A stretch of DNA of 64,000 nucleotides from Octopus sinensis (taxonomy: Eukaryota). The DNA is taken from NCBI RefSeq assembly GCF_006345805.1, contig NC_043001.1, positions 3,348,001 to 3,412,000 of the forward strand. The letters run 5' to 3'. This document shows, piece by piece, positions 13,201 to 58,800 of this stretch (within the stretch, counting starts at the first letter, position 1; every line of letters starts with the position of its first letter). The translations under genes were made by a program, and so were the position numbers. Below the pieces are notes generated by a model. It was not told where the DNA came from. It saw only the letters and a program-made list of their open reading frames with translations, and did not search any database.

Positions 13201-14164
13201 TTATGCATATATACACACACGTGTGTGTGTGTGTGTGTGTAATGCTTAGGTAGCCCAACTACCAACTGTAAACTCATTTAACCTGACAGTTTAACAGAAA
13301 CCAATTAGTATTAATGTTGTTTCTGCTGTTGTTGCTGCTGCTTCAAGTGTTGTTGCTGCTGGTGGTAGTGTTGTTGTTGTTGTTGCTGCTGCTGTCTGTG
13401 CTTCTGTTGCAGCTGACTATGTTTGTATTGTTATTAATGTTGTTTTGTTTGTCACCAATAATGTTGTGGAGTTCAGTGATAAATCGAGATAAAGATTCCA
13501 GCTTAAAGACATCTGTCAGATTCTTGGAGCCTCGAACATCTGAAACAAATAACTCATATATGCTTTGTAAATAATGCAAAAGTAAATTTCTGAGTGTTAT
13601 GGATGAAGAAATAATGTTTGAAGAACCAACGATGAAGATGGTTACAGAACTGGCGGCGAAAATGGCTGGGAAATTGGAAATGGAAATCGTTAGGCAAAAA
13701 ATAGCAGTAAATATTGTTGGAGAGAGGTGAAGGTAAACATGATTGGATGACTGAAAGAATATAGTATTAAAAAAAAGGAGATAAAAACAAAGAAATGGAA
13801 TAATTGAGGTTGTCCCTATTTGGATACCTATCATTACGATTTGCCTTTACCCTCCGTCTTTCAGTATTCCATGTTGGCATGCGGGGTTGGAAATGGTTCA
13901 AGAATAAGCAGTAAAAACCATTGGACAATTGGACATGAAAATGTTTGGAGTTCCAAGATAAAAGAGTTGACTTGAATAAAGGAGATGAGGATTGAAGAAC
14001 TGGAAGCAAAAACCCTTTGTTATTATCTTCATTGTAACAGCCTTTATTTTCATGCCTGCAAGGGTCAGATGGTATATGAGTAGCATATTGGAACCGGTAT
14101 TAAAGAAGGATAGGAAAATATTAGATTTATAAACCCTAGAATTCACTCAATAATTGCCCACGTT

Positions 14165-14232
14165 CATATGGCGTAGTGGTTAAGAGTGCGGGCTACTAAC
14201 CCCAAGATTCCAAGTTTAATTCCAGGCAGTGA
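14165..14232 (+). mobile_element. tRNA-derived head of composite HHR-tailed element
   Basis: tggcgtagtggtt (A box), gggctactaaccc anticodon-like arm, agtttaattcc (degenerate B box), followed by (TAA)n; same head at 58695-58770 on the minus strand. Confidence 0.75.
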
Positions 14233-14249
14233 CAATAATAATAGTAATG

Positions 14250-14307
<58 letters not shown>

Positions 14308-14320
14308 CAACAACAACAAC

Positions 14321-14353
<33 letters not shown>
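14233..14353. repeat. (TAA)n/(CAA)n microsatellite, LINE insertion site
   Basis: The tract resumes at 16543 after the LINE. Confidence 0.9.
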
Positions 14354-14354
<1 letters not shown>

Positions 14355-16543
14355 TGCATTCATGGAGAAGAACGATATTTTCCCCATTGAACAAAAAGGG
14401 TGCCGCCGAGGCTCTTACGGATGCAAAGATCAACTGCTAATCAATCGTATGATCCTTGAGAACTGTCACAACAAGCGCAGAAATCTCAGCACCGCATGGA
14501 TTCACTATAAAAAGGCCTTCGACAGTATACCGCATCCATGGATCTTGAGATCGCTGGACATCTTCAAAATTTTCCCTGTGATTTCAAACTTCCTGAAGCA
14601 CAATATGTCGTTGTGGAATACGAATCTCCAATTATACCACTCTAATGGAGTACTTGCCTCAGAAAATATAAACATCAACTGTGGAATTTTCCAAGGTGAC
14701 TCACTTTCACCTTTAATATTCTGCATAGCCCTAATACCCCTTACAAGTGAATTAAACAGAACAGGGTATGGGTATAAACTTGCCAATAAAAAAATAAGCC
14801 ATCTATTTTATATGGATGACTTAAAACTTTATGGTAAAGACAATAATGAACTTGAAGGCCTATTGCGCACCGTGAAAGCATTCAGCGATGACATCGGGAT
14901 GGAGTTTGGACTTGAGAAGTGTGCCAAGGCCACTTTCCAGAAAGGGAAAGTGAAGACCACAAATTCAGTTGTGTTAGATGTTGACACAGTCATAAGAGAG
15001 CTTGAGCAAGAACAAACATACAAATATTTAGGGATAAATGAAGGCTCTGGTATTCAGCATGCAAGCATGAAAGAGAAGATCAGGAAGGAATGTTATAGGA
15101 GAGTTCGTGCAGTCCTGAAATCTGAACTAAATGCACGTTACAAGGTGTTAGCTATAAATTCCTTAGCAGTTCCAGTTGTTACTTATAGCTACAATGTGTT
15201 GAACTGGAATATGAGTGAAGTAAAGAATATAGATAGAAAAATACGCAAGCTGCTGAGTTGTAATAGGATGCACCACCCAAAGGCAGACGTAGATCGCCTT
15301 TACCTTCCCAGAGCCCAAGGAGGTCGAGGCCTGATCCAATTTGAACTAGCTTACAAAACAACCACAATTGGACTGGCCAAATATCTCGAAATATCGAATG
15401 ACTGGATGCTAAAGCTCGTGGAAAATCACGAGAGACGAAAGAAGCTTCATTCTATTATAAAGGAAAGCAAAAAATTTGCTATTGATCTCGTGCAGGATTC
15501 CCAAACTGAACAACCTGAGGGAAGTACGGCAACTATTGTTGCAAAGAAGGTGAAAATGATGGCAATGAAAAAAGCGCACGAGCAATTGGCTGATAGGTAT
15601 GAGGAGAAACCTCTGCACGGCAAATATGTGACCCGCAGCAAACAAGCTGATGTTGACCAGAAGCAAACCCATCAGTGGCTGCGGAGCTCAGGGCTAAAAG
15701 CAGAGAGCGAAGGTTTCATCCTGGCTGCTCAAGACCAAAGCCTATTAACCCGGAACTACCAGGCCAATGTGATGAAAAATGGAGCAGACCCAAAATGCCG
15801 ATTCTGCAACGACATGATTGAAACAGTGGACCACCTTATCTCTGGATGTAAAGTCTTAGCACCAGTGGAGTATAAATTAAGACATGACAGAGTTGGCCAA
15901 TATCTCCACTGGCTAATAAGTCGGCATTACAATATCAAAACTGCCGACAAGTGGTATAATCACCACCCTGAGGCTGTAACTGAAGGAGAAAATGTAACCA
16001 TTCTGTGGGACTTTCCAGTACATACAGACTGAACCATCAAGGCCAATAAACCAGATATTGTTGTGAAAGACCAAAACAATAAAGTTTGCTTATTGATCGA
16101 CATGAGCATCCCCTGTGATCATAATATCTCAGCGAAAGAGTTTGACAAGCTCAGAAAATATAAAGACCTACTCATTGAAATTGAGAAAAATGGCATCTCA
16201 AGGCGGTTACAATACCAGTGATCGTAGGAGCACTAGGAATGATCAAGAAGGGAACCGAAAATTATATGAGAATGATCCCTGGCTTACCATCCCTGCAAGA
16301 AGTGCAAAAGATTGTCTTAACTGGTACATCACACGTATTGAGAAGAGCATTGTCGATGTGAGAACTGTTGCTGCTCATGTATTTTAATTTAACTTTAAAA
16401 AAAAAATTAAAAAAATATGAACGAAATACTGAGTTTGGTTTAATGGCCTACCAATATACACTATGAGTTTCTTTGCCCTAGGAGTCGGGAAGACACTCGG
16501 CAAGAAATGGAAGAAAATTTGAAAGAAGAAAAAAAAAAAAAAA
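14354..16543 (+). mobile_element. 5'-truncated R4/Dong-like non-LTR retrotransposon (RT + CCHC + RLE) with poly(A), inserted in (TAA)n
   Basis: EQKG, KAFDS, GIFQGDSLSP, FYMDD, YKYLG, GGRGL, LHGKY, AAQDQ, CRFC...HLISGC, RHD, KPDIVV, IDMSIP, PVIVGALG; poly(A) at 16529-16543. Confidence 0.95.
14362..16361 (+). pseudogene. reverse transcriptase-RLE ORF of the R4/Dong-like LINE (open 14362-16032; premature TGA at 16030, frameshift near 16190)
   Basis: The frame continues after the TGA (probably from CGA) as TIKANKPDIVVKD...KYKDL, then shifts to WHLKAVTIPVIVGALG...RRALSM*; the N-terminus is missing. Confidence 0.9.
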
Positions 16544-16571
16544 TAATAATAATAATAACAACAACAACAAC

Positions 16572-16720
16572 ATCGAAAAATACCTTACAAATGAGAACCC
16601 TGATTCAAAATTTCTCCAAGACACCTGATGAAGGCTGGAGGGTATATCAGCTGAAATGTTGTTAACAGCAAACAAGATGAGGACAAATATCCATCAAATG
16701 TAAATAATGTAAATAAGGTA
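16572..16720 (+). mobile_element. HHR-bearing 3' module of the composite element
   Basis: atcgaaaaatacctta...gacac-CTGATGA-aggctg-gagggtatat-cagct-GAAA-tgtt...gaggacaaatatcc.tcaaatgtaaataatgtaaataa; homologues at 24535-24720 and 58125-58250. Confidence 0.75.
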
Positions 16721-24467: not shown

Positions 24468-24720
24468 TAAGCAGGGACTTGAGAAATAATATCAACAGCA
24501 GCAACAAAAACAAAATAACATCAGCAAAAACAGAATATCTTAGGAATGAGAACAGAGAAGCCCATTAGTCAAATATGGAGCTGGGTTCAAAATTCCAGCA
24601 GAACACTTGATGAAGGCTGGAGAGCAAATTAGTAGAAACGTTGTGGTAACAACAAACAAGGAGAAGATATCCATTCATTGTAAATAAGGTTCATAATTCC
24701 TAATCTCCAAAATATAGAAT
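24468..24720 (+). mobile_element. old copy of the composite HHR-tailed element
   Basis: aagcagggacttga + degenerate AAC/AAT tract + cttaggaatgagaac...aacac-TTGATGA-aggctgg...GAAACGTT-gtgg-taacaacaaacaag. Confidence 0.65.
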
Positions 24721-43060: not shown

Positions 43061-43070
43061 AATGTGAGAC

Positions 43071-43188
43071 TCCTACAGCACCTAGGTTTCCCAAGCGGTC
43101 ACCCATCTAAGTACCCGCTAGGCTCGATGTTATATAACTTCGGTGATCGGACGAGAACCGATGCTCTCAACGTGATATGGCTGTAACC
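43071..43188 (-). rRNA. dispersed 5S rRNA copy, probably a pseudogene
   Basis: Minus strand: ccatatcacgttgagagcatcggttctcgtccgatcaccgaagtt...gtacttagatgggtgaccgcttgggaaacctaggtgctgtag; ~118 nt; substitutions in box A/C; no T4 terminator; not in an array. Confidence 0.92.
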
Positions 43189-58124: not shown

Positions 58125-58268
58125 ATTATTTAGATTATTTACGTTATTTACATTTGACGGATATTTGTCCTCATCTTGCTTGTTGTTAACAGGTGCCTTG
58201 GGGAAATTTCGAACCTGCGTTCTCATTCCTAAGGTATTTTTCGATGTCATTATTATTATTATTTTTAC

Positions 58269-58312
<44 letters not shown>

Positions 58313-58605
58313 GAAAATTAGTATTTTCTAATCTCACAATGAGAGATATTCAGCAACAGAACTTTGTAGTAAACATTGTTTGTCAACACAATATGGTAGT
58401 CCTGGTTTAGGATTAATGTTGCTGTAATTTAGCCCCAGGAGACATCGTGTCCAGCTGGCTATACGACACGGTCTGTGTCGTGTCCTTATTCGAAAATGTA
58501 AGGACACAGATCGTGTATAGCCAGCTGGAGACGATGTCTTCTGGGGCTAAATTACAGTAACATTAGTCCTACACCAGGACTGCCATATTATGTTGGCAAA
58601 CAATC

Positions 58606-58699
<94 letters not shown>

Positions 58700-58800
58700 T
58701 CACTGCTTGGAAGCGAACTCGGAATCTTGGGGATAATAGCCCGCGCTCATAATCGCTACGCCATATGGCGTAGTGGTTAAGAGCGCGGGCTACTAACCAG
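58125..58800 (-). mobile_element. composite element: tRNA-like head (58695-58770) + (TAA)n + 3' module (58125-58250) lacking the HHR core; inverted head stub 58765-58800
   Basis: Same head and tail as 14165-14232 and 16572-16720, in the same order on the minus strand. Confidence 0.8.
58371..58610. mobile_element. near-complete palindromic MITE-like element at a (TTA)n tract
   Basis: ~95-bp arms (ctgtaatttagcccca...ccagctggctatac / gtatagccagctgg...tggggctaaattacag) plus an inner gtgtcctta/taaggacac stem. Confidence 0.85.

What the first reader, a model, noticed from the sequence alone, without database searches (positions are those of the whole stretch)
14165..16720. Composite tRNA-head / (TAA)n / hammerhead-tail element whose internal microsatellite takes in other transposons
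Seen: removing the R4/Dong LINE (14354-16543) leaves tRNA-like head (14165-14232) + (TAA/CAA)n + a ~150-bp tail containing CTGATGA-stem II-GAAA. The same three parts occur in the same order on the minus strand at 58125-58770, there interrupted by a palindromic MITE, and in eroded form at 24468-24720. Known: tRNA heads supply Pol III promoters to SINEs; minimal HHRs mark Penelope-like pLTRs and retrozymes; Dong elements target TAA repeats. Inference: this is a Pol III-transcribed, ribozyme-terminated non-autonomous retroelement, possibly mobilised by a Penelope RT rather than a LINE, that spreads target sites for other elements. I do not know of a described family with this layout, but I cannot search the databases.
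Basis: partly seen in the sequence, partly recalled or inferred. Interest (0 to 1): 0.85.

Follow-up and report, generated by a model that had tools for sequence, protein, structure and literature searches.

The report
Penelope retrotransposon end with tRNA-like promoter

Summary
The three-part layout is real and genome-wide: 28 of 29 heads have the tail and 23 of 29 tails have the head, roughly 20,000 insertions. It is not a stand-alone SINE. It is the pseudo-LTR of an autonomous Penelope/Poseidon-clade element. The GIY-YIG stop codon lies about 29 nt before the head, and the 'tail' is the first ~52 codons of the ORF, with the hammerhead inside them. Copies show Penelope insertion signatures: a 5'-inverted partner in 41 of 58 loci, target duplications around the whole unit, and a ~25-35 nt extension on exactly one arm in 35 of 38 pairs. 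The unusual part is the tRNA-like A/B-box segment at the promoter position. 5' ends pile up at its start in short copies (26 of 29) and in all 4 ORF-bearing copies that reach it. Pol III transcription is inferred, not shown. The ribozyme is internal, not terminal, and is decayed or deleted in all three window copies. The landing-pad role is modest (3-4 of 29 Dong-like copies).

The parts
14074..14132 (+). Last 18 codons and stop of the PLE GIY-YIG ORF; the focal insertion is a 5'-truncated PLE copy
   Evidence: 93% identical to ORF end of L213; translation of 14076-14132 open to the stop; ORF context
14133..14161 (+). 29-nt 3' UTR spacer between stop codon and tRNA-like segment; its last ~7 nt are where most 5' ends fall
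14162..14233 (+). tRNA-like segment: A box 14169-14179, B box ~14214-14222 (B box decayed in this copy); likely internal Pol III promoter
   Evidence: family profile aligns to 20 of 20 genomic tRNAs tested, z 2.5-7.1; A box in 38 of 48 and B box in 28 of 48 copies; not called by ARAGORN or Rfam
14234..14353 (+). (TAA/CAA)n tract, 5' part
   Evidence: median spacer 37 nt in 51 copies
14354..16543 (+). Nested 5'-truncated LINE (RT, CCHC, REL-type motifs), Dong/R4-like by recalled features; young family (97-99% between copies) that inserts in TAA repeats
16544..16570 (+). (TAA/CAA)n tract, 3' part
16571..16716 (+). 'Tail' = 20-nt leader plus start of the PLE ORF (ATG at 16591); ends at the short (position ~148) 3' end
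   Evidence: L242-L244 run from this sequence in frame towards the RT
16620..16663 (+). Minimal type I hammerhead motif inside the ORF start: stem I 16620-16624, CTGATGA 16625-16631, bulged A, 5-bp stem II, GAAA 16653-16656, loop-less palindromic stem III; decayed here (two C-to-T changes, 2-nt deletion)
   Evidence: features as in PMC4209133
58134..58768 (-). Second copy (solo pseudo-LTR): head 58768-58697, TAA tract, tail 58245-58134 with the hammerhead core deleted
58761..58799 (+). Inverted partial head abutting the 5' end of the second copy (PLE-type 5' inversion)
58367..58612 (.). Palindromic MITE-like insert in the TAA tract of the second copy
24534..24719 (+). Eroded third copy, tail only, reaching the long (position ~171) 3' end

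Best explanation
The head-(TAA)n-tail unit is the pseudo-LTR of an autonomous Penelope/Poseidon-clade retrotransposon, and its tRNA-like segment likely serves as an internal RNA polymerase III promoter that sets the 5' end of the element's RNA, from which the Penelope reverse transcriptase likely makes both long copies and the abundant ~270-nt solo repeats. Shown by sequence: order GIY-YIG stop, 29 nt, tRNA-like segment, (TAA)n, 20 nt, ATG, hammerhead motif, ORF; two discrete 3' ends; 5' inversions; target duplications; pile-up of 5' ends at the tRNA-like start. Inferred: the enzyme nicks both strands of AT-rich DNA and starts cDNA at two internal sites ~130 and ~155 nt into the ORF, as shown in vitro for Anolis Poseidon. 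Starting in the 3' repeat gives ORF-bearing copies. Starting at the same sites near the RNA's 5' end, or on transcripts of solo repeats, gives the short SINE-like copies. One cDNA from each site, joined head to head, would give the inverted pairs with a one-sided extension. The hammerhead could cleave only as a dimer and is probably not needed for insertion. The tRNA-like segment probably entered as a tRNA-derived SINE with a TAA tail.
For: ORF end upstream of the head: 20 of 20 copies picked by the 79 nt upstream of the head continue into shared GIY-YIG coding DNA, and 6 of 6 long copies carry the head after the stop. Tail as ORF start: L242, L243 and L244 read in frame from the tail towards the RT, and homolog P0015 shows the translated hammerhead at its N-terminus; 13 of 14 further ORF-start copies continue into the tail. 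Clade: 36% identity over 553 aa to an 836-aa Anolis protein; homologs carry PF00078/PF28514/PF26215; the quick tree groups it with these, away from the genome's Neptune-type element. PLE signatures: inverted 5' partner at 41 of 58 loci; 93 of 96 3' ends in two clusters; extension on exactly one arm in 35 of 38 pairs, Fisher p 1.5e-7, and 28 of 30 without the shortest arms; duplication of 7 bp or more around 25 of 48 units against 1.8 in shuffled pairings. Promoter: 26 of 29 head-selected copies end at the head start, against a truncation rate of 14 per 6,180 nt in the ORF end, P 2e-32; 54 of 80 heads end within -10..+5; 4 of 4 ORF-start copies that reach the head stop at -7..+4; at most one ancestral run of 4 T in ~2.8 kb against about 4 expected.
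Against: No direct Pol III evidence. RNA-seq from a related organism shows equal depth for both read directions, 84-86% of reads run on into unlike flanks, and no pile-up of ends, which looks like read-through. T-run depletion is not significant in single copies (P 0.05-0.68), and a PLE without a tRNA-like segment also has none in 1,419 nt (L278). Only 4 long copies test the full-length 5' end. A short palindrome spans the head start and could by itself cause fold-back there. An uncapped 2.8-kb Pol III RNA would need an unusual route to translation (own knowledge), and PMC10886601 argues autonomous partners must use Pol II. No single intact full-length copy was seen; the ORF is known from overlapping decayed copies. 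The hammerhead core is no more conserved than the rest (96.1% vs 96.5%), and monomers do not fold better than shuffles.
Confidence: 0.6

Rival explanations
1. Same PLE pseudo-LTR, but the tRNA-like segment is a passive SINE relic. The 5' wall comes from a Pol II start at the same place, or from cDNA fold-back at the small palindrome spanning the head start.
For: Many inverted junctions are near-perfect palindromes centred there. Penelope has an internal promoter overlapping its 5' UTR intron (PMC8557442 passage; that it is Pol II is recalled). The RNA data show no discrete Pol III product.
Against: A and B boxes and a tRNA-like leader distance are kept in the family. Inverted partners also begin at many other positions, so fold-back is not tied to this hairpin. 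A distant PLE has an A/B-box segment at the same position (moderate support, z 2.9).
Confidence: 0.2
2. Pol III makes only short SINE-like transcripts from solo repeats, which the PLE protein mobilises in trans as a self-propagating family, while the autonomous element is transcribed by Pol II from elsewhere. This is closest to the first reader's idea.
For: Short copies dominate the copies found by head or tail (about 6 of 80 heads extend into the ORF). No run of 4 T in the unit's tail profile. A shared 3-nt deletion marks 17 of 73 classifiable tails, suggesting a sub-lineage.
Against: The 4 ORF-start copies that reach the head stop at the same place. Internal RT start sites near the RNA 5' end explain short copies without a separate master. 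The deletion variant also appears in the inverted arm beside one ORF-bearing copy (L216).
Confidence: 0.18
3. An ordinary LINE-mobilised tRNA SINE, or chance stacking of separate repeats in TAA tracts.
For: TAA tracts collect other elements.
Against: Near-complete linkage, in-frame continuity with a PLE ORF on both sides, no A-rich or repeat 3' tail, and PLE-type inversions and extensions.
Confidence: 0.02

Closest known systems
Poseidon from Anolis carolinensis (PAc; PMC11167929) and Penelope/Poseidon PLEs generally (PMC8557442, PMC4209133)
   Same: Single RT plus C-terminal GIY-YIG ORF; pseudo-LTR overlapping the ORF start; minimal hammerhead at the ORF start; two 3' ends defining an optional extension; inverted 5'-truncated partner; many solo hammerhead-bearing fragments.
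   Different: tRNA-like A/B-box segment and (TAA)n tract between stop codon and ATG, with 5' ends fixed there. No such segment in 7 other Poseidon-type 3' regions with a hammerhead that were scored; one distant family has a candidate.
TRIMp3 elements: Cassandra, Helenus, Ajax (PMC10886601)
   Same: Small-RNA-derived Pol III promoter inside a terminal repeat, proposed to arise by SINE insertion.
   Different: Those are non-autonomous LTR elements with PBS/PPT whose autonomous partners lack the promoter. Here the protein-coding PLE itself carries it.
Schistosome Sm-alpha / Sj-alpha SINE-like repeats (as reviewed in PMC6765202, PMC8490949; original papers not held)
   Same: Pol III-type promoter plus hammerhead in one short repeat.
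   Different: Tandem repeats released by an active hammerhead. Here copies are dispersed or head-to-head, the motif is the minimal PLE type, and the unit is part of a coding PLE.
Non-LTR retrozymes (PMC7229834; bioRxiv 10.64898/2026.07.22.740005) and non-autonomous Chlamys/MRC1 (PMC8557442)
   Same: Short non-coding units related to PLE pseudo-LTRs and thought to use PLE enzymes.
   Different: Head-to-tail tandems with one hammerhead per unit and circular RNAs; no tRNA-like promoter in the passages read. No head-to-tail arrays of the short unit were noted in the 58 loci examined.
tRNA-derived SINEs, including octopus OK/OR1/OR2 (Ohshima and Okada 1994; seen only as a citation)
   Same: tRNA-like 5' start with A/B boxes, ~270 nt, high copy number.
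   Different: 3' end is a PLE ORF start, not a LINE tail. Whether this family was catalogued as one of those SINEs or in Repbase/Dfam could not be checked.

Membership tests
Penelope/Poseidon-clade PLE | Single ORF with PLE-type RT and C-terminal GIY-YIG | tested here: met
   L233 551-aa open frame, 36% to Anolis 836-aa protein over RT and EN; homolog domains. Pfam scan of these decayed copies itself gave no hit.
Penelope/Poseidon-clade PLE | Pseudo-LTR found both after the stop and before/overlapping the ORF start | tested here: met
Penelope/Poseidon-clade PLE | Inverted 5'-truncated partner and optional ~30-40 bp extension at one end | tested here: met
   41 of 58 loci; 35 of 38 pairs one-sided; extension ~25-35 nt
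Penelope/Poseidon-clade PLE | Phylogenetic placement with Poseidon rather than Neptune | tested here: met
   36% to the Anolis protein vs 25% to the genome's Neptune-type ORF; quick tree only, careful search unfinished
PLE minimal hammerhead (type I) | CUGANGA/GAAA core, bulged base after A9, G10.1-C11.1, palindromic 15.2-16.2, 4-5 bp stem I | tested here: met
   family majority against PMC4209133; full motif in 23 of 91 tails; no Rfam hammerhead hit
PLE minimal hammerhead (type I) | Self-cleavage (as a dimer or protein-assisted) | not testable with these tools
   no pile-up of read ends, which is uninformative for fragmented cDNA libraries
tRNA-derived SINE | tRNA-related 5' part with A and B boxes | tested here: met
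   source tRNA not identified (only 6 isotypes among 20 genes)
tRNA-derived SINE | Pol III transcription | tested here: inconclusive
   5'-end pile-up and few T runs against uninformative RNA-seq
tRNA-derived SINE | LINE-derived or A-rich/repeat 3' tail; mobilised by a LINE | tested here: not met
   3' end is the PLE ORF start
Non-LTR retrozyme | Head-to-tail tandem units, each with a hammerhead | tested here: not met
   partners are inverted, head to head
TRIMp3 (Cassandra/Helenus/Ajax) | Two LTRs with PBS and PPT, 4-5 bp TSD, non-autonomous | tested here: not met
   duplications of 7-15 bp; coding PLE context
Dong/R4 LINE (nested insert) | RT plus CCHC plus REL endonuclease, insertion in TAA repeats | tested here: inconclusive
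   motifs read, RT, TAA-type repeats follow 29 of 29 other copies; clade not tested by tree, name recalled

The most novel reading that the evidence does not exclude
An autonomous, protein-coding Penelope-like retrotransposon whose whole RNA is made by RNA polymerase III from a tRNA-derived promoter in its pseudo-LTR. It sheds tens of thousands of SINE-like solo repeats through internal priming, and each inverted insertion records two cDNAs primed from the two target nicks at two different internal sites. A distant Poseidon family (L265) may use the same promoter trick.
Probability: 0.35. Interest if true: 0.88.

Novelty: new variant of a known kind. Interest (0 to 1): 0.7.

Why it matters
SINEs are taken to be partners of LINEs, and protein-coding retrotransposons to use Pol II (or Pol I co-transcription); this is own knowledge, with PMC10886601 for the Pol II argument. 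Here a tRNA-headed, SINE-looking family of about 20,000 insertions is the terminal repeat of a Penelope element. That shows a route by which a SINE-like family arises with no LINE, and it would be mis-filed as a SINE by annotation pipelines. If Pol III makes the full RNA, it raises a testable question about translating an uncapped retrotransposon RNA. The short copies are also a large natural dataset on the unresolved PLE insertion mechanism. The one-sided extension in 35 of 38 inverted pairs, within one target duplication, fits two-site, two-strand priming as seen in vitro.

Tried and rejected
Rfam and ARAGORN: no tRNA or hammerhead call. First partner search through Pfam GIY-YIG and a second PLE family: none of 80 loci shared the tail; these are other PLE families with variant hammerheads. 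The partner appeared only on walking upstream of the head. Selection on the ribozyme: core not more conserved than flanks, monomer folding z -1.3 to +0.4. T-run depletion: only suggestive. Expression: no RNA holder listed in the index; raw reads of a related organism gave 505-612 reads per million records, equal in both directions and mostly running into flanks, which neither shows nor excludes Pol III transcripts or cleavage. Source tRNA not identified. The L265 segment is a lead only: 1 of 60 shuffles scored higher, and the tree cannot tell shared from independent origin. 'Ribozyme-terminated' and 'LINE-mobilised' were rejected. Earlier findings of the scan: three look-ups, nothing returned. 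Literature: ten searches listed no paper describing a tRNA-like promoter in a PLE pseudo-LTR or a PLE-mobilised tRNA SINE. Repbase, Dfam, SINEBase, Lunse 2017, Ferbeyre 1998, Ohshima and Okada 1994 and the bioRxiv supplements were not seen and could bear on novelty. Rows dropped: the window's own copy was left out of the 29+29 and the 29 Dong counts; 18 of 91 tails were unclassifiable for the deletion.

Full report
Observation. The genome is 2.72 Gb; an octopus-like host is my guess from the repeat landscape, not a tool result. Linkage is genome-wide: leaving out the window copy, 28 of 29 best head matches have the tail downstream and 23 of 29 best tail matches have the head upstream. These are best hits, not a random draw. 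Forty 10-kb stretches at arbitrarily chosen round coordinates held 3 insertion loci, about 20,000 per genome (95% range 4,200-60,000). Rfam and ARAGORN call neither tRNA nor hammerhead.

What it is. The focal copy shares sequence upstream of the head with other copies. All 20 copies fetched through that upstream stretch continue into common coding DNA that ends a GIY-YIG domain; in the window this is 14074-14132. Six longer copies carry RT and endonuclease sequence, and all 6 have the head about 29 nt after the stop. At the other end of the ORF, L242, L243 and L244 read in frame from an ATG at tail position 21, through the hammerhead, towards the RT, and 13 of 14 further ORF-start copies continue into the tail. 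Homolog P0015 has the same translated hammerhead at its N-terminus. The ORF is 36% identical over 553 aa to an 836-aa Anolis protein, which I infer is the Poseidon element PAc. Homologs carry PF00078, PF28514 and PF26215, and a quick tree places it among them (careful search unfinished). Pfam scans of the decayed copies themselves gave nothing, and no single intact full-length copy was seen. So head + (TAA)n + tail is the pseudo-LTR of an autonomous Penelope/Poseidon element, and most copies are solo pseudo-LTRs.

Insertion signatures. 41 of 58 loci have an inverted partner at the 5' end. 93 of 96 3' ends fall at tail positions 138-151 or 168-174, and the long end stops within 7 nt of position 174. 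In 35 of 38 inverted pairs exactly one arm has the long end (Fisher p 1.5e-7; 28 of 30 without the shortest arms). 25 of 48 units are flanked by a duplication of 7 bp or more, against 1.8 expected from shuffled pairings, so each inverted pair is one event. These match the inverted 5'-truncated copy and the one-sided 30-40 bp extension described for PLEs (PMC8557442, passages). They also match the two internal RT start sites and two-strand cleavage shown for PAc (PMC11167929, parts 1-2 of 4). I infer that each target nick primes a cDNA at one of the two sites and the two cDNAs are joined head to head; fold-back followed by resolution is the alternative.

The hammerhead. The family majority has a 5-bp stem I, CTGATGA, a bulged A, a 5-bp stem II with G10.1-C11.1, GAAA and a loop-less palindromic stem III. 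These are the features of PLE minimal hammerheads, which cleave weakly and only as dimers (PMC4209133, parts 1-2 of 4). It lies inside the ORF, 55-85 nt before the 3' ends, so the element is not ribozyme-terminated. The full motif survives in 23 of 91 tails, the core is no more conserved than its flanks, and 17 of 73 classifiable tails share a 3-nt deletion at the cleavage site. Cleavage is therefore probably dispensable for spread, as for PAc in vitro. All three window copies are damaged.

The unusual part. The head aligns end to end with all 20 genomic tRNAs tested (z 2.5-7.1), with an A box in 38 and a B box in 28 of 48 copies. It sits where a PLE promoter is expected, just before the ATG. 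5' ends pile up at its start: 26 of 29 head-selected copies, against 14 truncations in 6,180 nt of the adjacent ORF (P 2e-32), and 54 of 80 heads end within -10..+5. Of 22 copies examined at the ORF start, 4 reach the head, and all 4 stop at -7..+4. Runs of 4 T, the Pol III stop signal, are copy-specific; at most one is ancestral in ~2.8 kb against about 4 expected. This is suggestive only: single-copy tests are not significant, and a PLE without the segment also lacks T runs. RNA-seq of a related organism shows abundant reads, equal in both directions and mostly read-through, with no discrete ends. Pol III use is thus inferred. A Pol II start or cDNA fold-back at the small palindrome spanning the head start remains possible. 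A distant Poseidon element from a metagenome contig (L265/L266) has A/B-box-like motifs and a short TAA-type tract at the same position. Its support is moderate (z 2.9), and 7 other families with a hammerhead show no such segment.

Landing pad. 4 of 51 spacers hold foreign insertions, besides the two in the window. All 29 other copies of the nested LINE lie in TAA-type repeats, but only 3-4 lie in this element's tract. The tract is one TAA source among many.

Comparison and novelty. It is a member of the Penelope/Poseidon clade and works like PAc. It fails membership of LINE-dependent SINEs, retrozymes and TRIMp3. Nearest analogues for the promoter are TRIMp3 (PMC10886601: abstract, discussion, passages) and schistosome Sm-alpha (review passages). 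Other papers seen: PMC7229834, PMC4758252 and PMC8967140 as passages; PMC13282606 part 1 of 3 plus a supplement search; the 2026 retrozyme preprint part 1 of 5 plus passages.

Verdict. A real feature, re-identified: new variant of a known kind, interest 0.7. Confidence is about 0.97 that it is a Poseidon pseudo-LTR, about 0.6 that the tRNA-like segment is the working promoter that sets the RNA start for both forms, and about 0.35 for the boldest reading, full Pol III transcription of a protein-coding retrotransposon.

Noticed in passing
L265/L266 (L266 ~2570-2760): Distant Poseidon-type PLE (40% identity to homolog P0001) in a perfect 2,791-bp repeat unit, with A/B-box-like motifs and a short TAA-type tract between stop codon and hammerhead; 2 runs of 4 T and none of 5 T in 2.7 kb.
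   Followed up: partly
L035-L060 (e.g. L038, L047): Abundant Neptune-type PLE family with a variant hammerhead core (TTGATAA ... GAAAC), ending in TA repeats.
   Followed up: partly
L183-L209: Another GIY-YIG PLE family with a variant core (TTGAAAA ... GAAA) about 90 nt before its 3' end and a long CA-rich 3' UTR.
   Followed up: partly
window 43070-43188 (-): 5S rRNA-like sequence (80 bits) overlapping a repeat family; possibly a 5S gene copy or a 5S-derived repeat head.
   Followed up: no
window 39508 (+): Second CTGATGA-stem-GAAA motif in an unrelated context; possibly another PLE hammerhead.
   Followed up: no
L161, L163, L167, L172, L178: Five of 29 Dong-like copies are followed, after the TAA tract, by one other shared repeat, a further TAA-bearing family used as a landing site.
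   Followed up: no
L239 ~390-560: ORF 3' end joined directly to tail position 149 and then the ORF start, skipping the head; looks like a template switch at the short RT start site.
   Followed up: no
L099 6469-6728, L103 335-742: ORF fragments of this PLE without a pseudo-LTR in the 400-kb sample.
   Followed up: partly
tail position 59 in L002-L090: The one free core position (N7) is the most variable non-CpG core base (T in 79, A in 7 of 91), a weak hint of selection in source elements.
   Followed up: partly
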